From a virus, in the IMG/VR virus record IMGVR_UViG_3300037264_006128, positions 1-64,000 of that record: a DNA stretch of 64,000 nt; one strand, given 5' to 3'. The notes under the pieces were generated by a model. It worked only from the letters and a program-made list of their open reading frames with translations, searched no databases and had not been told where the DNA came from. Shown piece after piece: positions 11,404 through 29,719 of the stretch. Position numbers and translations under genes: made by a program. Position 1 is the first letter of the stretch; each line of letters begins with the position of its first letter.

Positions 11404-11876
11404 CGCAGCAATTCATCGAACGCGAAGGGACCGGTACCGTGGTGTACTGGGGGGACCTTCCCCCACCGGATCAACAAGCCCTGATCGTCCTGCTACGTCT
11501 TGACGAAAACGGCGACGCCCCGGCGTTGATCGGATACTGGCCGGATCGCGACAGCGTCCACCAGAGGGCAGAATGGGACGAGTGCTACGAGCCGCTGATT
11601 CCGTTCACGCTGGAAATCCTGCGGGAAGACCAGTCGGAAGGGGTCTTCCGCCGCTTGATGCTGGTGCCGGAGTGGCCGCCGATTCCGTGCGACCCAGATA
11701 CGGGTAAGCCGCGGGAGCGCTCCGCCCGGGAACTGCGCCGCCAGTACCTGGCAACCTCGCCACGGCTTCTGGGCGCCGCGACCCCGATCACGCTGATGCC
11801 TGGGGTGGACCCGGATAAACTGGGGGAAGAATGCGACAAGTGGGACCGGCATCTGAACGAGCCGGAAGCGGAGTGA
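11400..11876 (+). CDS. hypothetical protein
   Basis: GGAGGAG RBS, ATGA overlap. Confidence 0.7.
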   Translation: MTQQFIEREGTGTVVYWGDLPPPDQQALIVLLRLDENGDAPALIGYWPDRDSVHQRAEWDECYEPLIPFTLEILREDQSEGVFRRLMLVPEWPPIPCDPDTGKPRERSARELRRQYLATSPRLLGAATPITLMPGVDPDKLGEECDKWDRHLNEPEAE

Positions 11877-11909
11877 GTGCGGAGCCAAGGAGCGCCCGAA
11901 GAAGTAGCC

Positions 11910-11935
11910 AGTACGTCGCGTACCGAACCTTACTG
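11910..11935 (+). repeat. AGTACG-N13-CTTACTG site
   Basis: intergenic, ends 27 nt before ATG 11963. Confidence 0.85.
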
Positions 11936-11962
11936 CGGAGAAACGGGAAAAGGAGGAACGAA

Positions 11963-12196
11963 ATGGGGAACATCATCATGCGGGACAAGCTGTTGGATTT
12001 CCTTGTGGCAGTGCAGGCAGACGAGGATTTCGGCGGCCGACCCAAGGTGGGCGGATCGATCACCTCGTTCATGGGTGCCGGGGATGAATTCTTGATCGGG
12101 GACGATGCCTACTACCTGAAGGACGGGGAACCGCACAATCTGGCCGCGGAGCTGAACGCGACCGAGCGTGGCTTGGAAATCGTGGTGATCGGCTGA
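11963..12196 (+). CDS. hypothetical protein
   Basis: AGGAGG RBS. Confidence 0.7.
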   Translation: MGNIIMRDKLLDFLVAVQADEDFGGRPKVGGSITSFMGAGDEFLIGDDAYYLKDGEPHNLAAELNATERGLEIVVIG

Positions 12197-12428: not shown

Positions 12429-12986
12429 ATGGCGAAAGTGCAAGTAGAGTACTGCGGCATGCCGGGGGAAGGAAAGACGCTGACGGCCGCGAAACAGGAC
12501 GCAGCGCGGAAGGCAGAAGATGCCCTCAAAGGAGATTACACGCCAACCCTGCTGTGCGTTGGCGACCAGATGGGGTTGCTGTTCCGAACCCCACAGGGGT
12601 GGTTTGGGGAGCGGATTACTGGCTACAAAAGTGGCCTCATCTACGGGTCATCGTACGGCCTAGACCAACAAGCCGCCCGCATCCGGTTCTCGTACAATCT
12701 TGCCCAGCTTGCCTGGACCCCAGAATTCATTTCCAGATACTTCGGGGGCTCCGATGACGACTTCATCAAATACGCCATCGGGGAAGGCAAGGACAAGGAA
12801 AGCCGCCAATCCGCCAGCGAGTTACGTTCATGGATCAAGTGGCAGAGGGGCTATCGGGAACTTCGCGCACGGGGGATCAGTGAGAACGGGGCGCACAACA
12901 TCGTGAGCGGCAACGAGCATCTGGCCAGCCAGGAAGACCGCGAACTTTTGGTTGGCTGGGCAGAGGGGGAATCTGCGAATGGGTAA
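12429..12986 (+). CDS. hypothetical protein
   Basis: AGGAGG RBS. Confidence 0.75.
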   Translation: MAKVQVEYCGMPGEGKTLTAAKQDAARKAEDALKGDYTPTLLCVGDQMGLLFRTPQGWFGERITGYKSGLIYGSSYGLDQQAARIRFSYNLAQLAWTPEFISRYFGGSDDDFIKYAIGEGKDKESRQSASELRSWIKWQRGYRELRARGISENGAHNIVSGNEHLASQEDRELLVGWAEGESANG

Positions 12987-13665
12987 CCAGATTCGATCGG
13001 AAGACGCGGCGGAATATCCTTCAGAGAGCCGCAAGTCCCCAGATGGACCAGTGGCGAATCCCTCCACGCGCGAACGAACGTACATCGACCTGTTATCGGA
13101 GGTGCTGGGGGTAAACCGGGACGTAGCAGCGCAGGTGCTGGTTACCGCCGGCGGTAAGCTGCGGGAGTTGGGGAAAGTGACCCACAATGAGTTAGTTGGC
13201 GCCGGGGTGGTGGCCAGGAAGCGCCAAGAGCGGTTCCGGGCCTTGATTGCATTTGCCTTGTCCTATGGGGAGGAACCATGGGAGGTGGGTGCCCCGTTCC
13301 GCGGCAGCTACGATGTGTACGCACACTTCCGCGAGCGCCTGGCGGCCGAGCCGCGAGAGCACTTTTACGCGGTTCTCCTGGACAACAAGAACCGCAAGCT
13401 GAAGGAGGTGTGCGTTTCAGTGGGAACGCTAACCGGGTCGCTGGTGGTACCGCGGGACGTGTACCTGCCGGCAATCAGGGAGTCCGCCGCCGCGGTGATC
13501 TTCGTGCATAACCATCCCAGCGGCGACCCAACCCCATCGAAGGAAGACATCGACATCACCCGCCGGCTGCGGGAAGTGGGGGACCTGATCGGGATTCGCG
13601 TGTTGGATCACGTGATCATCGGACAGGGCAGGTACGTGAGCTTCGTGGACGATGGGTACTGGTGA
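12979..13665 (+). CDS. radC: RadC-family JAB/MPN domain protein with N-terminal HhH
   Basis: E...LLDNKN...HNHPSGDPTPSKED...LDHVIIG. Confidence 0.92.
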   Translation: MGNQIRSEDAAEYPSESRKSPDGPVANPSTRERTYIDLLSEVLGVNRDVAAQVLVTAGGKLRELGKVTHNELVGAGVVARKRQERFRALIAFALSYGEEPWEVGAPFRGSYDVYAHFRERLAAEPREHFYAVLLDNKNRKLKEVCVSVGTLTGSLVVPRDVYLPAIRESAAAVIFVHNHPSGDPTPSKEDIDITRRLREVGDLIGIRVLDHVIIGQGRYVSFVDDGYW

Positions 13666-21155: not shown

Positions 21156-21184
21156 TTGCAAAGCGTGCGCGTTTGTGCGATGAT
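21156..21184 (+). promoter_or_regulatory. sigma70 promoter for the AAA module
   Basis: TTGCAA-N17-GATGAT with TG extension; CGCTTGCAAAGCGT identical to the promoters at 4125 and 6205. Confidence 0.65.
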
Positions 21185-21227
21185 TCTTTCGGCCGCGGTT
21201 TTCGGCCGAAATTGAAAGGAGGTGGGC

Positions 21228-22751
21228 ATGAAGGAGCTGATCGAACAGCTGAAACAGGCAAGAAAGGTGGCGACCCCACTGGTGGTGGTGGGGACGTATG
21301 ACCCGGAAGTTACGTTGACCACCCTGCGTACGTTGCTGAACGGAAAGAGCCCGCTGTTGACGTGGGATTGCGTTGACGGCGTACGGGAAAGGAACGAGCT
21401 GGGGCAGGCGGCAATGAGTGCTGTAAACCCAGAGCAGTGCTTCAAACCTACGGGGATGCTGGTGCAGGCAAGGGAACTACCGGCGAAGACCGTTTTGGCA
21501 ATGGTTCACCCGCATCGGTTCTTCGATGACCCCACGGTGGTAGAGGCGATTCGGCAGCTACGCGACCCGTTCGCTACGAACACGCGCATGCTGGTGCTGC
21601 TGTGCCCGGAGGCATCGGTGCCGCAGGAGTTGCGGCAATCGGTGGTGACGCTGAACGAACGGCTGCCTACAAAGGAGCAGCTGAGTTCCGTGGCGCAGGT
21701 GGTGTACAACGACCTGCGGGAGAAGAACCCGGCAACGCCAGCCCCTACCGAACAGGACCTGACGGCCGCGGCGCAAGCCATGCAGGGGTTCGGCAAGTTC
21801 ATGGCTAGCCAGGTCGGCTACCTGGGGATCAACTTCGATACCGCACGGGTGGACATCGAAGCGATGTGGGGCGTGAAGCGTTCGTTGATTGCGCAGGTGC
21901 CGGGGCTGAGCGCGGTGGAACCGGGCCTAACGTTTGCGGACATCGGCGGTTGCGGGGCGGCGAAGGAATACATGCTGCGCCGCGCTGCCGGAAAGAGGCG
22001 CCCAGCCCTGATCGTGATGATTGACGAGATCGAGAAGCAGATGGCGGGGAGCGGTTCCGGTGGGGATTCCAGTGGTGTGAGCACCTACATCAAGGGCGCG
22101 ATTCTGCAAGCGTGGCAGGACTACGAGTGGGATGGGATGTTGGAGCCGGGGCCGCCGGGGTGCAGCAAGAGCCACTTCATCAAGTGCTGCGCGGCGGAAC
22201 TGAAAGTGCCTGTTTTCAAGATGGACCTTGGCGCGACCAAGGGCCAGTACGTGGGCGTATCCGAACAGAACATCAACGAGGCCTTGCGCACGTTGCACGC
22301 CATCGGCGGGAAGGACGTGTTCTTCATGGCCACGTGCAACGACATGCAGGTGGTGACCGCCGATCTGCGACGCCGGTTCCGTTCTGGCGTATGGTACTTC
22401 CCACTTCCGGGGGGCGACGAGTTGGACGCGATCTGGGGCATTCACCTTACCAAACGCGGATTGCCGCTGGATATGCCGCGGCCGGACGATACGAACTACA
22501 CCGGCAGCGACGTGGAAACGGTGTGCGAACGGGCGTGGGAGCTGGAGATCGACTTGAAAGAAGCGGCCGAGAAGTACCTGACGCCAGTGTTCAAGACCAA
22601 CCGGGAAAGCATCCTAGCGTTGGAGAAGTTGGCGGCAGGGCGATTCCTGGACGCGAACACCGGAGGGCTGTACAACCCAAGCGCAGGTAGCCGCAGACAG
22701 GTCAGGCGGGTTTCCTCCGGGCGTGGGTTGGGAGCCGTGGCGAATGGGTAG
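21228..22751 (+). CDS. Ycf46-like AAA+ ATPase with permuted Walker B/Walker A order
   Basis: IVMIDEIEK precedes GPPGCSKS; then VGVSEQN, ATCND (sensor 1) and LRRRF (Arg finger). Confidence 0.85.
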   Translation: MKELIEQLKQARKVATPLVVVGTYDPEVTLTTLRTLLNGKSPLLTWDCVDGVRERNELGQAAMSAVNPEQCFKPTGMLVQARELPAKTVLAMVHPHRFFDDPTVVEAIRQLRDPFATNTRMLVLLCPEASVPQELRQSVVTLNERLPTKEQLSSVAQVVYNDLREKNPATPAPTEQDLTAAAQAMQGFGKFMASQVGYLGINFDTARVDIEAMWGVKRSLIAQVPGLSAVEPGLTFADIGGCGAAKEYMLRRAAGKRRPALIVMIDEIEKQMAGSGSGGDSSGVSTYIKGAILQAWQDYEWDGMLEPGPPGCSKSHFIKCCAAELKVPVFKMDLGATKGQYVGVSEQNINEALRTLHAIGGKDVFFMATCNDMQVVTADLRRRFRSGVWYFPLPGGDELDAIWGIHLTKRGLPLDMPRPDDTNYTGSDVETVCERAWELEIDLKEAAEKYLTPVFKTNRESILALEKLAAGRFLDANTGGLYNPSAGSRRQVRRVSSGRGLGAVANG

Positions 22752-23172
22752 CCGGCGGAAGAAGGGCCAGTGCAGACCCGCGCCGCCGCCGCCACAAAAG
22801 CCAGCCAAGAAGATCGAGGTTGTTCGCCTGATCTTCATCGCGCTCTGCGTTGGCTACATCTTCGTGGCAAGGGAACCGGACCCAGAGTGCGGCAAGGCAC
22901 AGGCGCGGTTCTACGTGGCGGTGGAGGAATCAATGCGCCAGCAATCGTGTAGTGGGCTGAAGCAGGCGAGGGTGGAACTGGAGAAGATCCGCGCCCACTG
23001 CGGAAAGGCTGGGGCGTCGAACGAAGCGCGGATGCAGCGGTTGCAGGACATGGGCATCTGCGGGGTACGGCAATCATTCTTCTACTTCGAGGTTCCGATG
23101 GGGGAGGAGGATGATCTGGGATGGGCAGAGGAATGGGCCGCGAAGGCGGTGGAATACGTAACGGCGTTGTGA
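22744..23172 (+). CDS. single-pass membrane protein
   Basis: hydrophobic IEVVRLIFIALCVGYIFV segment. Confidence 0.65.
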   Translation: MGSRRKKGQCRPAPPPPQKPAKKIEVVRLIFIALCVGYIFVAREPDPECGKAQARFYVAVEESMRQQSCSGLKQARVELEKIRAHCGKAGASNEARMQRLQDMGICGVRQSFFYFEVPMGEEDDLGWAEEWAAKAVEYVTAL

Positions 23173-23203
23173 GTAACGCGCGAATTTACAAAGGAGGTGT
23201 ACG

Positions 23204-23668
23204 GTGAGCCATACGGTAAGTATCGAAATCGAGGTGACAGACTTGCACGCACTGGGGAAAGCCGCGGAAGACTGCGGATTGACGTTGGCGCTCGGACAGG
23301 AAACGTACCGCAAGTACCAGCGTTCAACCCCGGGGGAATGCACCCACGCCATTGGGGACCCGGCCGCCACGCGGACGTACGAAGTGGGCATAATGGAAGT
23401 CGGCTGCGAGGAGAAGGGCGCCCGCTACGAATTGATGTGGGACCCATACAATGGTGGGTACGGCCTGATGGATCACGTTGGGGAGGGCGCCTGTAAGCTG
23501 CGCCAGGCGTATGCCGTGCGGGTGGCGGAGAAGCAGGCACGTAAGGAAGGGTGGGAGGTGAACCTGAAGAAGCAGGACAACGGGGATGTGGTGTTGGAGC
23601 TGCGGCAGGAAGTAGGGGCAGGGGCGCAACAGTACGGCGCCGCCGCTCAGGCAGGACGCAACTGGTAG
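23204..23668 (+). CDS. DUF1257/Ycf35-like protein
   Basis: MSH..I...V.DL.AL..A...G start; YEL.WD...LRQAYA. Confidence 0.75.
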   Translation: MSHTVSIEIEVTDLHALGKAAEDCGLTLALGQETYRKYQRSTPGECTHAIGDPAATRTYEVGIMEVGCEEKGARYELMWDPYNGGYGLMDHVGEGACKLRQAYAVRVAEKQARKEGWEVNLKKQDNGDVVLELRQEVGAGAQQYGAAAQAGRNW

Positions 23669-23682
23669 GAAAGGAGGGAGCG

Positions 23683-23994
23683 ATGGCAAGGACGGCATTG
23701 ACAGACGGATCGGGTAGGTGGTTCGACCCAACGAAGTCTCAATCTTGGGAAGAAGGGACTTACTGGAACGGGAACAACCCCATTTCAATGGTGACCGGCA
23801 GCCAGTGGAATCACGAACAGCTCTACCGAACCAAGGGTGGCCGGTGGATCCTGCACGGGTGGTCCCAATGGCAAGGTTCCACGGACAGCTGGGCGGAAAT
23901 CACAAATGAAACTGCCGCACGTTGGCTCGTGCGCAACGAATGCGAGCCGCACGAAGCATGTGCGGCGGAGTTTGCGGAACTGGAAATCCAGTGA
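23683..23994 (+). CDS. conserved hypothetical protein (HEQLYRTKGGRWIL)
   Basis: GGAGGG RBS. Confidence 0.75.
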   Translation: MARTALTDGSGRWFDPTKSQSWEEGTYWNGNNPISMVTGSQWNHEQLYRTKGGRWILHGWSQWQGSTDSWAEITNETAARWLVRNECEPHEACAAEFAELEIQ

Positions 23995-24010
23995 AGGGAA
24001 GGAGGCGTTG

Positions 24011-24205
24011 ATGGCAGAGGTGTTCGTGAAAGTAACGGTTCACGCAGATGCGAAGACCGAAATTGCCGTGATGGAAGGCGCGGCCGGGGTGGAGTGCGAA
24101 AACCTGACAGCGGGGCTGGAGAAGGCGTTGGGGGTGCCGAAGAACCGCCAGCACACGGAAGACTACTTCAAGGTGAAGCGGCAGGGGCAGAGGCTGCGAT
24201 CGTAA
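24011..24205 (+). CDS. DUF2997-like protein
   Basis: V.V..D...I..EG..G..C..LT..LE.ALG. Confidence 0.7.
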   Translation: MAEVFVKVTVHADAKTEIAVMEGAAGVECENLTAGLEKALGVPKNRQHTEDYFKVKRQGQRLRS

Positions 24206-24225
24206 GGGCGGGAGGAGGTGAAACG

Positions 24226-24483
24226 ATGACATTCCTAACGGCACACTGCCTGGTGATCAAGCGGGACGGGACGATCAAGTGCGTGTACAACGATCGCGTG
24301 CAGCCGACCCTGGAAGGGCTTGGGGGAAAAATGAGCATCCGCAGGGCCAGCCACGTGGAGCCAACGGCGGATTGCAAGTGGGAAGCGGACCTTTCGCCTT
24401 CCCAGGGCCCGGTGCTGGGACCGTTCGAACGGCGGGAAGATGCGCTGGAAGCGGAACGGGCGTGGCTAGGGAGAAACTTGTAA
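24226..24483 (+). CDS. conserved partner of AAA/DUF1257/DUF2997 clusters
   Basis: IRRASHVEP...W.ADLSP..GPVLGPF..R..AL.AE..WL. Confidence 0.7.
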   Translation: MTFLTAHCLVIKRDGTIKCVYNDRVQPTLEGLGGKMSIRRASHVEPTADCKWEADLSPSQGPVLGPFERREDALEAERAWLGRNL

Positions 24484-24515
24484 GCGGGCTGGCAGCCCAA
24501 AAGGAGGAACAAGCA

Positions 24516-25505
24516 ATGAGTGAGGCAACGGAACAGGCAACTGAGAGCGCGCAGAACCAGGAAGTGGCCGCCAGCTTGATGAGCAAGTGCGTGGCCCTGG
24601 AAATCCGCAAGAGCGTACTGAACGTACAGCGAAAGACCAACGTGCGCAAGGCGCAGGCATCGGGGGATGGGGAGGTGACCAACATCGCGGAAATGGAAGG
24701 CGCGGTGTTGACGGATGCGGACCCGGATCAGGTGACGGTGCACAAGCGGATCCTGGACAGCCCGGAACTGAAGCAGGTAACCAAGAAGGACGGCGAGATT
24801 ACGCGGTGGCTGGACGATCGTTCCCTGAAGAGCTGCTTCCGGGGCGTGAAGTTCGTGCCGGTGGTGCTGTTGGAAGAGGTGGACGAACGGCTGTGCGAGT
24901 ACGTGGAAAACGAACGGCCCGTGTTGATCGAGGCATTCTTCGAAACGTACCCGGCGATGAAGGAGAAAGCCGAAGCGGAGTTGGGCAGCCTGTACCAGGA
25001 GTCGGACTATCCGCCGGAAACGTACTTGCGGGAGAAATTCAACTTCCGCTGGCAGTACCTAACGTACGACACGCCAGGCCGCCTGAAGCAGCTGAAGCGG
25101 GACGTGTGGCAGCGGGAAAAGGAGAAGATGAACGAACGGTTGACGGAGGCGTACGGGGAAATCCAGCAATCCCTGCGCGTGGTGTTCGCCGAACTGGTCG
25201 GCAACATGGCCACCTTCCTGCAGCCGGACGAGGAAGGGAAGCCCCGGCGGTTCAAGAAATCCAGCGTGGAGAAACTGGTGGGATTCATCGAGCTGTTCCA
25301 ACAGCGGAACGTGACCGACGATGCGCAGCTTGCTGGGCTGGTGGAAACCGCGAAGGAGATGTTGGAAGGAACGGACGCGGAAGATCTGCGCAAAGACGAG
25401 GCGCTACGGGCCGCGTTGGCGGACGGCATGGGCACGTTGTCTGTGGAACTGAAGAAGCTGACGGAGCAGGCGCCCACCCGGGGGCTGCTGGGGGAAGACG
25501 AGTAG
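24516..25505 (+). CDS. DUF3150-like alpha-helical protein
   Basis: AGGAGG RBS; LG.LY..SDYP....LR.KF motif. Confidence 0.65.
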   Translation: MSEATEQATESAQNQEVAASLMSKCVALEIRKSVLNVQRKTNVRKAQASGDGEVTNIAEMEGAVLTDADPDQVTVHKRILDSPELKQVTKKDGEITRWLDDRSLKSCFRGVKFVPVVLLEEVDERLCEYVENERPVLIEAFFETYPAMKEKAEAELGSLYQESDYPPETYLREKFNFRWQYLTYDTPGRLKQLKRDVWQREKEKMNERLTEAYGEIQQSLRVVFAELVGNMATFLQPDEEGKPRRFKKSSVEKLVGFIELFQQRNVTDDAQLAGLVETAKEMLEGTDAEDLRKDEALRAALADGMGTLSVELKKLTEQAPTRGLLGEDE

Positions 25506-26904: not shown

Positions 26905-28218
26905 ATGGCGAACGGAAAACCGACGCAGCAAGACGATCCGCAGAACAAGAAACTGGCGACCGTGCCAGAAGGGGCAGCTGAATTCTCCCTGACGGTTCGC
27001 GGCAACCAGCCGGACCAGATGGTGGTACGGCCCCACAACCTGGACGAACTGCTCGCGAACGCGAAGATGATCGCCTTTTCGAATCTCGTGCCGGAAGCAT
27101 TCAAGGGCAAGCCGGATGATGTCGCCGTGGCTATCCAGATGGGAATGGAAGTGGGATTGCACCCCATGCAGGCAATGCAGTCCATCGCCGTGATCCGTGG
27201 CCGACCGTGCATCTGGGGGGAAGCCGTGAAGGCTTTGGTGCTCTCCAGCGGCCTGTGTGAATACTGGATTGATTCCCCGCCGGATCAGATCCGCGAAACG
27301 GGGGTCGCCACCTGCCGCACGAAACGGCGCGGCTGGCCGGAGGAGTCCGTTTACAGCTTTTCCGTTGACGACGCCAAGATCGCCGGCCTGTGGGGGAAAG
27401 AGGGCCCATGGAAGGCATACCCTGCCCGGATGCTACTCGCCCGCGCACGCGGCTTCCTGGCAAAGGACACGTATCCAGACGTTCTGCGGGGCATGGCGGT
27501 ACGGGAAGAGGTGGATGATCTGCCGGAAGCGGGGCAGTTCGCTGCCGCGGAGGTGATCATCCCGTTGCAGGAGCCGCGGCGGAAGAGTGCGGCCGAAGCC
27601 TCCCGGGAAACCGTCACGGTTCAGCGCGTGGTTCCCGAAGAAGCGATCAATGCGGAGTTTCACGTGAAACACGCCCAGGCCGCCGAAGCGGAGGAAGCCC
27701 CACCGCAGAAGAAGACGGTGCCGCCGAAGAAGCAACCTGAACCGAAGCCCGCCCTGAAAGTTCAGGAGGATCCGCCGCCACCGCCACCAGACGACGACCC
27801 TCAAGGCGAAGACCAGCCGCCATTTGACGCGCCAACCACAACCAAGGCCTCCGTGGAAAAGGCGCAGGCGGCAGAGGCGGAGCTGGGCGAACAGCTGAAC
27901 CTCCTGAAGGGCGCAGCAAAGCCAGCCGCACAACCCGTGGCGCAGGAGGCCAAACGTGCGCCTGCGAAAGCAACCGCCTGGGAGCTGACTACGACGGTGC
28001 AATACGCAGGGAAGCAGATCAAGACCGGCGGGATCAGTGCCATCACCCTGCTAAAAGTGCAGCGCGGGGCAGAGCGGTTCGATGGCATTCACTACCAGGG
28101 CGCGGCGACGGAGGCCCTGGCAACGATGTTCCCGGACGACACCCCGCCGGGGTTTGAATACCTGGGCGAAGACGCAGGGCGGGAATTCTTGCAGTACATG
28201 AAAGAGAACGAGAAGTAG
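26905..28218 (+). CDS. recT: RecT/Redbeta-like single-strand annealing protein
   Basis: GKP.DV.VAIQMG.EVGL.PMQA.Q.IAVI.GRP...GPW..YP.RML.ARA. Confidence 0.85.
   Translation: MANGKPTQQDDPQNKKLATVPEGAAEFSLTVRGNQPDQMVVRPHNLDELLANAKMIAFSNLVPEAFKGKPDDVAVAIQMGMEVGLHPMQAMQSIAVIRGRPCIWGEAVKALVLSSGLCEYWIDSPPDQIRETGVATCRTKRRGWPEESVYSFSVDDAKIAGLWGKEGPWKAYPARMLLARARGFLAKDTYPDVLRGMAVREEVDDLPEAGQFAAAEVIIPLQEPRRKSAAEASRETVTVQRVVPEEAINAEFHVKHAQAAEAEEAPPQKKTVPPKKQPEPKPALKVQEDPPPPPPDDDPQGEDQPPFDAPTTTKASVEKAQAAEAELGEQLNLLKGAAKPAAQPVAQEAKRAPAKATAWELTTTVQYAGKQIKTGGISAITLLKVQRGAERFDGIHYQGAATEALATMFPDDTPPGFEYLGEDAGREFLQYMKENEK
27656..27671. promoter_or_regulatory. parS-like centromere site
   Basis: AGTTTCACGTGAAACA, 15/16 match to TGTTTCACGTGAAACA. 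Confidence 0.75.
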
Positions 28219-28234: not shown

Positions 28235-28834
28235 ATGGAACGGAGCGAGTACCCAAGTGTCACAAAGATCATACGGGGCATGGGCCTCTATAAGGCCATG
28301 CCTACTGGTGGCGTTGCCACGGGGAACATGCAGCGCGGAATGGAGCGCGGAACGCTAGCCCACTCCGTCTGCCAACTGTGGGATCAGGAAGACCTTGACG
28401 AAAGCTCCGTTGACCCCCGCCTTGACCCATACCTGGAAGGATTCAAGCTGTGGAAGCGGGATTACGAGACGGTGCCGATCTGGTGGGAAATCCCCATGTT
28501 CGACGACACGTTGCAAGCAAAGGGGCGGCCGGACACGGGGCAGTGGGTACGTGGGTACAGAACGTTGGTGGACCTGAAAACAGGGGATGGTGGGGCGGAC
28601 CCGGCGCATCCGATCCAGGGGGCGGCGTACAGGCGCATGGTGATGCTCCCGGAAAACCTCTCCGTAAGCCGTATGGTGCAAACAGCGGACATTTACTTCG
28701 GGAATCTCTACCTACTGTCCAACGGGAAGTACCAATACTTCGAATGCTCCCAGGAGGATATTCTTGGGGCAGAACAGAAGTGGCTCGCCGCCGTGCTTCT
28801 CTACCACTTCCGGCTCCAGCACGGCCGCCTCTAA
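28235..28834 (+). CDS. PD-(D/E)XK exonuclease (partner of RecT)
   Basis: PSVT.I...RGT..H...GRPD...VDLKTG...Q..AY. Confidence 0.8.
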   Translation: MERSEYPSVTKIIRGMGLYKAMPTGGVATGNMQRGMERGTLAHSVCQLWDQEDLDESSVDPRLDPYLEGFKLWKRDYETVPIWWEIPMFDDTLQAKGRPDTGQWVRGYRTLVDLKTGDGGADPAHPIQGAAYRRMVMLPENLSVSRMVQTADIYFGNLYLLSNGKYQYFECSQEDILGAEQKWLAAVLLYHFRLQHGRL

Positions 28835-28951: not shown

Positions 28952-29719
28952 ATGGCATCGAGGGCGTTAGCGTTTGAAGAGGAAGATTTTCAGTACCAAA
29001 CGTTGCAGGGCGAATCGGGCGCGCTGCCGAACGAACTGCAGGTGGAACTGCAGGAATTTGCGGCTGGTTCCGATCTGCCGGTAACCACGGACGAGGAATT
29101 CGTTGTGGCGGCGCAATATCTGCGGGATGAAGTTGCCCCACGAATCCGGGCGGTGAAGGCATTCTTCAAGCCCATGAAGGAATCTGCTGCCAAGGCGCAT
29201 GCGGCGATCTGCACCCAGGAACATCGGGTACTGGACAAGATCGTGAACATTGGGGATTTGGTGAAGAAACGGCTGAACGATTACGACAACGCGAAGCGGG
29301 AAGCGGCCGAACAGTTGGCCCGGGCGGCGCGGGAGGAAGCACAGCGGCAAGCTGCGGAACAGCGGTTGACGGAAGTGCAGAAGAAGCTGGACGAAGGGGA
29401 CGATGAAGCTGCGGAAAGGTTACTGCAGGCGAACGTGGTACCCAAGATTGCCGTTCCGGTTGTGGCGCCCACGGCACCGGCAGTGAAGGGGATCACGCGG
29501 CAATCCCGTTGGGTTGGCGAAGTGGTGGACCCGGTGGCGTTTGTTCGCTGGATTGCCAGCGGTACGGACGAAGAAGTGCGGCACCGCCTGCACTTCGTGG
29601 AAATCTCCCAGGCCGAACTGAACCGCCTGGCCGCTGCGCAGCGTGGCACCATGCAGGTTCCCGGCGTGGTGGCGAAAGAAGTTTCCAACATGATCACCCG
29701 CGGCAAGGCGGGGGCATGA
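28952..29719 (+). CDS. coiled-coil phage recombination-module protein
   Basis: FFKPMK..A..AH..IC; C-terminal VPGV. Confidence 0.75.
   Translation: MASRALAFEEEDFQYQTLQGESGALPNELQVELQEFAAGSDLPVTTDEEFVVAAQYLRDEVAPRIRAVKAFFKPMKESAAKAHAAICTQEHRVLDKIVNIGDLVKKRLNDYDNAKREAAEQLARAAREEAQRQAAEQRLTEVQKKLDEGDDEAAERLLQANVVPKIAVPVVAPTAPAVKGITRQSRWVGEVVDPVAFVRWIASGTDEEVRHRLHFVEISQAELNRLAAAQRGTMQVPGVVAKEVSNMITRGKAGA

What the first reader, a model, noticed from the sequence alone, without database searches (positions are those of the whole stretch)
21156..25505. AAA+ ATPase with Walker B before Walker A, heading a DUF1257-DUF2997-DUF3150-like operon
Seen: the Walker B block PALIVMIDEIEKQMAG..GDSSGVS...LQAWQD (from about 22005) precedes the Walker A block GPPGCSKS...MDLG...VGVSEQN..AL (from 22149), which runs straight into sensor 1 (VFFMATCND) and the Arg finger (LRRRF). 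Established: Ycf46-family AAA+ proteins order these as Walker A, pore loop, Walker B, sensor 1, so two core segments are swapped here while all catalytic motifs remain. The gene has its own sigma70 promoter and is followed by a TM protein, DUF1257/Ycf35-like, DUF2997-like, a conserved RASHVEP protein and a DUF3150-like protein. This is the ycf46-type neighbourhood, whose function is unresolved. Inference: a self-contained, uncharacterised ATP-driven remodelling or counter-defence system with a rewired AAA+ topology.
Basis: partly seen in the sequence, partly recalled or inferred. Interest (0 to 1): 0.85.

Follow-up and report, generated by a model that had tools for sequence, protein, structure and literature searches.

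The report
Phage AAA+ ATPase with swapped core
A phage gene encodes an AAA+ motor protein in which the piece carrying Walker B lies before the piece carrying Walker A. More than 200 diverse phage relatives share this order and keep every catalytic residue, so it is an old, working rewiring of a very conserved enzyme fold, and I found no paper that describes it.

Summary
The gene at 21228-22751 (+) encodes a 507-aa protein with a dead AAA-like N-terminal module and one active classical AAA module. In the active module the Walker B / pore-loop-2 / helix unit (residues 259-302) precedes the Walker A / pore-loop-1 unit (303-364). Sensor 1 and the arginine fingers follow as usual.

It is not an assembly error or a decayed gene:
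- All 152 closest cluster representatives, 80 viral contigs and the cultured Tunturiibacter phage Tunturi_3 share the order.
- Walker A Lys, sensor-1 Asn and one Arg finger are invariant in 221 distinct sequences.
- AlphaFold2 folds the protein at pLDDT 94.8.
- The permuted proteins form one clade beside normal-order relatives that have the same neighbours.

The gene heads a conserved five-gene module: DUF1257-like, DUF2997-like, a small RASHVEP-motif protein and a DUF3150-like protein. Two unrelated ORFs are inserted in this phage. The ATPase and the DUF3150-like protein end in the same short Arg-x-hydrophobic tail, spelled alike within each phage. That suggests a shared docking site.

Function is untested. 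I found no support for a sigma-70 promoter or a defence role. This scan has noted the same swap on other DNA, but I found it in no paper.

The parts
21228..22751 (+). AAA+ ATPase gene (507 aa from the ATG; residue numbers in this report count from the GTG at 21222)
   Evidence: identical 507-aa protein on record, P0002
21228..21896 (+). Degenerate AAA-like N-terminal module (residues 3-225), with no P-loop Lys and no Walker B acid pair
   Evidence: AF2 secondary structure. The whole model aligns to p97 D1-D2, Z 18.8, rmsd 3.7 A, 399 residues aligned. Family consensus.
21996..22127 (+). Segment B, moved forward (residues 259-302): strand with Walker B (DEIEK), pore loop 2, helix alpha3
22128..22313 (+). 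Segment A (residues 303-364): strand beta1, Walker A GPPGCSKS, alpha1, beta2, pore loop 1 (YVG), alpha2
22314..22406 (+). Unmoved core end (residues 365-395): sensor-1 strand (ATCN), Arg fingers R384/R385, beta5
22407..22646 (+). Helical lid subdomain (about residues 396-475)
22704..22748 (+). C-terminal tail with the Arg-x-hydrophobic motif (here GRGLG)
22723..23172 (+). ORF of 149 aa with one hydrophobic stretch. Specific to this phage, not a conserved module member.
   Evidence: 0 of 81 loci
23204..23668 (+). DUF1257/Ycf35-like protein (154 aa, starts MSH)
   Evidence: Pfam E 0.0084, below the cut-off. The iterated HMM finds it in 61 of 81 loci. The Tunturi_3 homologue passes Pfam. Alignment A7.
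23683..23994 (+). Trp-rich ORF of 103 aa, specific to this phage, inserted between the DUF1257-like and DUF2997 genes
   Evidence: 0 of 81 loci
24011..24205 (+). DUF2997 protein (64 aa, invariant Cys)
   Evidence: Pfam 3.7e-9, 36.8 bits against a cut-off of 24.1; 43 of 81 loci; alignment A8
24226..24483 (+). Small RASHVEP-motif protein (85 aa), in no Pfam family
   Evidence: 39 of 81 loci; alignment A6; no Pfam or PDB match; Atlas clusters from viruses and Planctomycetota
24516..25505 (+). Helical DUF3150-like protein (329 aa). Its C-terminal tail (TRGLLG...) matches the ATPase tail.
   Evidence: 76 of 81 loci; 12 of 42 homologues hit PF11348, best 4.4e-10; Atlas TM 0.82 to a DUF3150 cluster; tails

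Best explanation
This is a functional phage AAA+ ATPase of the classical clade, built like a small Cdc48/p97: a dead D1-like module followed by one active module. Its active core carries a heritable, non-circular permutation. The unit beta3 (Walker B) / pore loop 2 / alpha3 has been moved in front of the unit beta1 (Walker A) / alpha1 / beta2 / pore loop 1 / alpha2.

Inferred from the established AAA+ sheet order 5-1-4-3-2:
- Only three helix-to-strand loops are re-joined (alpha0 to beta3, alpha3 to beta1, alpha2 to beta4). They sit on the edge of the sheet away from the ATP site and pore loops.
- Each new target lies only one or two strands from the old one, in the same direction. The same 3D fold and active site can therefore form with a new chain order.
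- The likely origin is a tandem duplication of the A+B block followed by loss of the outer halves. It happened once, in an ancestor that already sat in the DUF1257/DUF2997 module.

Also inferred: the protein forms a ring that unfolds or remodels proteins using ATP, together with its conserved partners. The DUF3150-like partner and the ATPase carry the same co-varying C-terminal tail and probably dock to one common site. The substrate and the role in infection are unknown.
For: Shown:
- The swapped order is in the sequence and against p97.
- It is shared by 152 of 152 nearest cluster representatives, by 80 viral contigs plus one frameshifted copy, and by cultured phage Tunturi_3 gp103.
- In 221 distinct permuted sequences: Walker A Lys 221, Walker B Glu 219, sensor-1 Asn 221, Arg fingers 213 and 221.
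- Inteins sit inside the P-loop of two relatives.
- The AF2 model has pLDDT 94.8 and pTM 0.90.
- The active module matches Vps4 (Z 17.2, rmsd 3.0 A, 213 residues aligned of model residues 221-479), p97 D2 (Z 16.3) and spastin (Z 16.2). The roughly 46 residues a sequential aligner cannot place match the 44-residue moved unit.
- Permuted proteins form one clade of 221 tips with no normal-order sequence inside. This holds in five column sets, including the N-terminal and C-terminal parts untouched by the swap.
- Normal-order relatives keep the same neighbours.
- The module recurs in two main gene orders.
- ATPase and DUF3150-like tails from the same locus are more alike than shuffled pairs: z about 7, 0 of 10,000 shuffles.
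Against: - I could not inspect model coordinates, so the position of the moved strand between beta4 and beta2 is inferred, not seen.
- No ATPase, oligomer or partner binding was tested. The complex predictor was closed.
- Support for the permuted clade's node is moderate (0.41-0.83, FastTree).
- No duplication intermediate was found among 363 sequences.
- The tail shuffle test does not fully control for differences in composition between phages.
- Most relatives have Leu, not an aromatic residue, in pore loop 1. Threading like Cdc48 is therefore not assured.
Confidence: 0.8

Rival explanations
1. The order is an artefact (misassembly or chimera), or the gene is a decaying pseudogene.
For: It comes from a single metagenomic record. 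The only public run that holds it is probably the source sample.
Against: The same order occurs in 233 sequences at 30-41% identity, including a complete cultured phage genome. Catalytic residues are invariant. The frame is open, and a second assembly is identical.
Confidence: 0.01
2. The DEIEK block belongs to the degenerate first module or to a linker, so the second module has no Walker B and is a binding-only or inactive AAA domain.
For: Pfam's AAA model covers only residues 310-368.
Against: The first module ends near residue 225, with its own lid helices. Residues 231-255 align to the start of p97 D2, and 257-298 align to p97's own Walker B to alpha3 stretch. The block is confidently modelled (block means of pLDDT 89-98). 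Its Asp/Glu pair and its Lys are conserved as strictly as in normal-order relatives.
Confidence: 0.04
3. The moved unit is exchanged between neighbouring subunits of the ring (3D segment swap): each active site is built from the Walker B unit of one chain and the Walker A unit of the next.
For: The loop from alpha3 to beta1 is only about two residues long in the model. Permutations and domain swaps are often linked (general knowledge).
Against: The monomer model packs the unit within its own chain at high confidence. There is no oligomer model or data.
Confidence: 0.05
4. The module is a counter-defence or defence system, rather than a general phage remodelling or assembly helper.
For: It is carried almost only by phages and lies in the early arm with RadC-like, RecT-like and exonuclease genes.
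Against: There is no match to PADLOC models beyond a marginal P-loop hit. The core trio (AAA, DUF1257, DUF2997) is also a cyanobacterial gene set (PMC4284462 for the DUF2997-ycf35 cluster). No variable or hot-spot context was examined.
Confidence: 0.15

Closest known systems
Normal-order AAA ATPases of phages and mobile elements with the same N-terminal module (P0156-P0275, L001-L009, phrog_8638). JGI labels one of them 'SpoVK/Ycf46/Vps4 family'.
   Same: Same length and two-module build, same catalytic motifs, same C-terminal Arg-x-hydrophobic tail, and the same DUF1257 and DUF2997 neighbours, sometimes with RASHVEP and DUF3150-like genes.
   Different: They run Walker A unit, then Walker B unit (130 of 130). 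The window's clade runs the reverse. The DUF3150-like gene is near-constant with the permuted form (76 of 81 loci) but was seen in only 2 of 9 normal-order loci.
Cdc48/p97/VAT, Rix7/NVL and AFG2 type II classical AAA+ unfoldases
   Same: Best matches by sequence profile and by fold. The full length aligns to p97 D1-D2 (Z 18.8). The protein has an SRH with two Arg fingers and a pore loop 1 of the aromatic-hydrophobic-Gly type.
   Different: There is no N-terminal cofactor domain, the first module has lost its nucleotide motifs, and the chain order in the active module is permuted.
Circularly permuted GTPases (RsgA/YjeQ, RbgA/YlqF, YqeH, YawG)
   Same: A natural P-loop NTPase family in which the order of nucleotide motifs is changed (G4-G5-G1-G2-G3) while the fold and activity are kept (PMC6912228).
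   Different: That is a circular permutation of a whole GTPase domain of the other P-loop class. Here two adjacent internal blocks of an AAA+ core are exchanged and both domain ends stay in place.
Docking tails shared by different proteasome activators (HbYX of PAN/Rpt/Cdc48; GQYL of Mpa and Bpa). Analogy from my own knowledge, also named in earlier scan notes.
   Same: A short C-terminal peptide is shared by an AAA+ ring and an unrelated partner. That would let both address one receptor.
   Different: The motif here is Arg-x-hydrophobic followed by acidic or small residues. No receptor is identified and no binding was tested.

Membership tests
Classical-clade AAA+ ATPase (Pfam PF00004) | Walker A GxxGxGK[ST] | tested here: met
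   GPPGCSKS at 310-317; Lys in 221 of 221 permuted sequences; PF00004 E 1.2e-11
Classical-clade AAA+ ATPase (Pfam PF00004) | Walker B hhhhDE, sensor-1 Asn, second region of homology with two Arg fingers | tested here: met
   D268/E269, N373 and R384/R385 are present and conserved
Classical-clade AAA+ ATPase (Pfam PF00004) | Chain order Walker A, pore loop 1, Walker B, pore loop 2, sensor 1 (strand order 5-1-4-3-2 read along the chain) | tested here: not met
   The order is Walker B unit, Walker A unit, sensor 1. Membership of the superfamily stands; the connectivity is new.
Classical-clade AAA+ ATPase (Pfam PF00004) | AAA+ alpha/beta core plus helical lid fold | tested here: met
   Vps4 Z 17.2 (rmsd 3.0 A, 213 residues aligned), p97 D2 Z 16.3 (rmsd 2.6 A, 203 aligned), spastin Z 16.2. 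The place of the moved unit in 3D was not inspected.
Classical-clade AAA+ ATPase (Pfam PF00004) | Hexameric ring and ATP hydrolysis | not testable with these tools
   The complex predictor was closed; no biochemistry.
Ycf46 (cyanobacterial/plastid AAA protein) | About 500 aa: an N-terminal module of about 230 aa plus one AAA module, with DUF1257 (Ycf35) and DUF2997 partners | tested here: met
   Architecture; partners. PMC4284462 reports the cyanobacterial DUF2997-ycf35 cluster.
Ycf46 (cyanobacterial/plastid AAA protein) | Direct sequence kinship to a bona fide cyanobacterial or plastid Ycf46 | not tested
   No reference Ycf46 sequence was available through a tool. No NCBIfam model matched. 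The only link is a JGI label on relative P0250.
Type II AAA+ (Cdc48/p97) | Two nucleotide-binding AAA modules and an N-terminal cofactor-binding domain | tested here: not met
   The first module has the fold but no P-loop Lys or Walker B acids. The model starts directly with this module.
Pfam DUF1257 (gene at 23204-23668) | Score above the Pfam gathering cut-off | tested here: inconclusive
   The window protein scores 16.8 bits against a cut-off of 22.2. Its Tunturi_3 homologue scores 32.3 bits, and both belong to one iterated-HMM family.
Pfam DUF2997 (gene at 24011-24205) | Score above the Pfam gathering cut-off | tested here: met
   36.8 bits against a cut-off of 24.1
Pfam DUF3150 (gene at 24516-25505) | Match to PF11348 | tested here: inconclusive
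   The window protein has no hit. 12 of 42 aligned homologues hit, best 4.4e-10. Atlas structure TM 0.82 to a cluster in which 20% of members carry DUF3150.
Known anti-phage defence systems (PADLOC-DB 2.0) | Match of any module protein to a system model | tested here: not met
   Only a marginal P-loop hit to IetA, E 0.0042, 14.6 bits

The most novel reading that the evidence does not exclude
This clade would be the first natural AAA+ (ASCE) motor with a new chain connectivity: strand order 5-2-4-1-3 when numbered along the chain. The rewiring may not be neutral. Helix alpha3, which in normal AAA proteins leads into the sensor-1/Arg-finger strand and carries inter-subunit signalling, here leads into the P-loop strand, so coupling between pore loop 2, the ATP site and the neighbouring subunit would differ. 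With its near-constant DUF3150-like partner and the shared, co-varying tail, the permuted motor would then be the hub of a tail-addressed remodelling machine of soil and sediment phages.
Probability: 0.25. Interest if true: 0.85.

Novelty: new variant of a known kind. Interest (0 to 1): 0.72.

Why it matters
- **A natural experiment on a fixed fold.** The AAA+ core is among the most conserved and most studied enzyme folds, and its motif order is treated as fixed. A large, old clade with the two central units exchanged shows that the fold tolerates a non-circular permutation. It tests which covalent links matter for ATP-driven coordination, because normal-order sister proteins sit in the same gene module for direct comparison.
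- **Annotation.** Domain models see only part of the active module (Pfam covers residues 310-368), so such proteins are under-described.
- **A testable handle on orphan families.** The five-gene module and its shared tail give a concrete handle on the long-unexplained Ycf46/Ycf35(DUF1257)/DUF2997 group.
- **Genetics is possible.** A cultured phage-host pair carries the whole set: Tunturi_3 on Tunturiibacter psychrotolerans X5P2.

Tried and rejected
No test of ATPase with the DUF3150-like protein, of the ring, or of DUF1257 with DUF2997 was possible.
- The first AF2 run, with 3 sequences, was poor (pLDDT 54.7) and I discarded it.
- Mean-field coupling analysis on 350 sequences (Meff 235) was dominated by clade-specific positions next to the junctions. 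It said nothing reliable about strand pairing.
- My first regex counts of motif order were too strict. I replaced them with segment HMMs.
- The alignment was too diverse for pattern scans twice. The first genome-contig scan found no relative.
- The sigma-70 promoter scan found 0 sites. Terminator-like sites were no more frequent than in shuffles.
- NCBIfam gave no match for any of the seven proteins. PADLOC gave nothing meaningful. PDB profile searches for the DUF1257-like, RASHVEP and DUF3150-like families gave nothing below E 0.1.
- [RK]GL in the last 16 residues of genome ORFs: 5 seen against 1.28 expected. Two of the five defined the motif, so this is only a lead.
- No RNA holder is listed for the gene.
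- Literature searches for a permuted AAA+, for Walker B before Walker A, and for DUF2997/DUF1257/DUF3150/Ycf46 found no description of the swap or the module. The library lacks most subscription journals.


Full report
**What is there**

The window is the first 64 kb of a 96,451-bp IMG/VR virus record, from a sediment metagenome. Structural genes lie on the minus strand. An early arm lies on the plus strand, with a RadC-like JAB protein, a RecT-like annealing protein and two exonucleases.

The gene in question runs from ATG 21228, behind a GGAGG at 21218, to 22751. It gives a 507-aa protein identical to one on record (P0002). Residue numbers below count from the GTG at 21222 (P0001).

Reading along the chain:
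- a helix (245-256);
- a strand ending in the Walker B acids (DEIEK, 268-272);
- a Gly/Ser-rich loop, which is pore loop 2;
- a long helix (286-301);
- only then the strand and P-loop GPPGCSKS (310-317), a helix, a strand, and the pore-loop-1 YVG (343-345);
- a long helix (344-362);
- the sensor-1 strand (ATCN, 370-373) and RRRF (383-386).

A profile of the family aligns to p97 D2 out of order. Query 303-355 matches p97 313-365, query 257-298 matches p97 368-410, and query 344-442 matches p97 396-500. Pfam's AAA model covers only 310-368.

Against normal-order relatives the exchange is clean. Segment B (259-302) and segment A (303-364) have changed places, and all three junctions fall in helix-to-strand loops.

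**It is real, old and under selection**

An exhaustive HMMER search of 1.84 billion cluster representatives gave 4374 hits at E <= 0.001 and 900 at E <= 1e-30. Segment HMMs gave these orders:
- All 152 sequences of the best-150 list (plus P0001 and P0004) are B-then-A.
- So are 80 IMG/VR contigs, plus one frameshifted copy.
- So is gp103 of the cultured Tunturiibacter phage Tunturi_3 (PP885686.1).
- In all, 233 sequences read B-A-C and 130 read A-B-C, with no mixed or duplicated form.

In 221 distinct permuted sequences, conservation is as follows:

| Residue | Count |
|---|---|
| Walker A Lys | 221 |
| Walker B Asp | 199 (plus 21 Glu) |
| Walker B Glu | 219 |
| Sensor-1 Asn | 221 |
| Arg fingers | 213 and 221 |

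Two relatives carry inteins inside the P-loop.

A second assembly of the one public run that holds the gene gives it in a single contig without differences. That run is probably the source sample, so this excludes an assembler quirk only.

In 185,579 species genomes, one pattern scan found six close relatives, all on MAG contigs. The clade is essentially phage-borne.

**Structure**

With 148 aligned relatives AlphaFold2 gives pLDDT 94.8 and pTM 0.90. A three-sequence run had failed.

The whole model aligns to p97 D1-D2 (Z 18.8, rmsd 3.7 A, 399 residues aligned). Residues 1-225 are therefore an AAA-like module. It has lost the P-loop Lys and the Walker B acids.

The active module aligns to Vps4 (Z 17.2, rmsd 3.0 A, 213 residues aligned, model range 221-479), to p97 D2 (Z 16.3) and to spastin (Z 16.2). 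A sequential aligner leaves about 46 residues unplaced, which is close to the 44 residues of segment B.

I could not read coordinates, so the exact seat of the moved strand is inferred.

**Why the fold can stand it (inference)**

This follows from the established AAA+ sheet order 5-1-4-3-2.
- The exchange re-joins only three loops: alpha0 to beta3, alpha3 to beta1, and alpha2 to beta4.
- All three lie at the N-terminal edge of the parallel strands, opposite the P-loop, Walker B, sensor 1 and the pore loops.
- Alpha3 and alpha2 each reach a strand one place further on in the same direction, so crossover handedness is kept.
- Numbered along the chain, the sheet becomes 5-2-4-1-3.

**Origin**

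I put the permuted sequences back into normal order in silico and aligned them with 129 normal-order relatives (350 rows). They form one clade of 221 tips with no normal-order sequence inside. This holds for all columns, for the N-terminal part alone, the C-terminal part alone, both together, and the core alone. FastTree support is 0.41-0.83.

So the swap arose once. Duplication of the A+B block followed by loss of the outer halves would give exactly this result, but no intermediate was seen.

**The module**

Iterated HMMs over 81 loci gave these counts:

| Partner | Loci (of 81) |
|---|---|
| DUF3150-like | 76 |
| DUF1257-like | 61 |
| DUF2997 | 43 |
| RASHVEP protein | 39 |

- The main gene orders are AAA>DUF1257>DUF2997>RASHVEP>DUF3150 (20 loci) and AAA>DUF3150>DUF1257>DUF2997>RASHVEP (16 loci).
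- The ORFs at 22723-23172 and 23683-23994 have no counterpart in any locus.
- The DUF3150 link rests on 12 of 42 homologues hitting PF11348 and on an Atlas match.
- Tunturi_3 has all five genes: gp103, gp102, gp101, gp99 and gp96.
- Normal-order relatives have the same DUF1257 and DUF2997 neighbours. The permutation therefore happened inside an existing module.

**Shared tail**

I followed a lead from earlier notes of this scan and compared C-termini.
- An Arg-x-hydrophobic motif lies in the last 16 residues of 200 of 221 permuted ATPases, against 38 of 221 in a control stretch.
- It is also in 115 of 127 normal-order ATPases and 65 of 70 DUF3150-like proteins. For the DUF3150-like proteins the raw pattern does not discriminate, since the control stretch matched in 53 of 70; their case rests on the invariant tail Arg (R322) and on the co-variation below.
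- Only about a third to under half of the three small partners have it.
- The spelling is local. In this window it is GRGLG against TRGLLG, and other loci share R-x-Y-G or R-x-Y-D-L.
- Tails from the same locus score higher than shuffled pairs: z about 7, 0 of 10,000 shuffles, over 67 non-redundant loci.
- Loci that hold only the ATPase and the DUF3150-like gene still show the motif. The receptor is therefore one of these two proteins or is encoded elsewhere.

Binding itself is untested.

**What it does**

Function is inferred only. The most likely role is a ring-shaped, ATP-driven protein remodeller working with its four partners during early infection.
- I found no consensus sigma-70 promoter.
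- I found no match to defence models.
- I found no paper describing the swap or the module. The Tunturi paper does not discuss gp103.
- The nearest precedent for a permuted P-loop NTPase is the circularly permuted GTPases (PMC6912228).

Earlier notes of this scan report the same swap on other DNA. It is therefore new to the literature I could search, but not new to this scan.

Noticed in passing
relatives P0042 and P0065 (not in the window): Inteins (Cys ... His-Asn, then Ser) are inserted inside the P-loop of two permuted ATPases. P0043 has a different insert of about 400 aa after segment A.
   Followed up: partly
L016, L017, L018, L026, L028, L031, L035, L040, L041, L046, L056, L059 (downstream of the ATPase): In about 25-28 related loci the ATPase is followed by a short DUF1257-like protein that starts MPC instead of MSH. 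Next comes a protein of about 65 aa that resembles DUF2997 but lacks its invariant Cys and ends in a His-rich tail. This hints that the pair handles a metal.
   Followed up: no
window 11831-12196 (+); also genome 92440-92778 (-), outside the window: Two further ORFs end with an [RK]GL-type tail like those of the ATPase and the DUF3150-like protein. Enrichment is weak: 5 seen against 1.28 expected, and two of the five defined the motif.
   Followed up: partly
L015:11693-12652 (Tunturi_3 gp96): This gene is annotated 'HNH endonuclease' in GenBank. It is the DUF3150-like module member (HMM E 1.3e-83) and has no HNH hit in Pfam. The annotation is probably wrong.
   Followed up: partly
L003:10010-12649: A normal-order relative is split into two ORFs by an insert of about 1 kb just after its Walker B block. 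The insert may be an intron, intein or homing element.
   Followed up: no
L095:3126-4558: One permuted ATPase gene is broken into two overlapping ORFs, either by a frameshift or by a sequencing error.
   Followed up: no
window 12952-13665, 26905-28218, 28235-28834, 28952-29719: These genes encode a RadC-like JAB protein, a RecT-like annealing protein and two exonucleases. They frame the module in the early, recombination arm of the phage.
   Followed up: partly
window 21164-21179: A terminator-like hairpin with a T run lies just upstream of the ATPase start and could mark a transcript boundary. Such sites are no more frequent here than in shuffled sequence.
   Followed up: no
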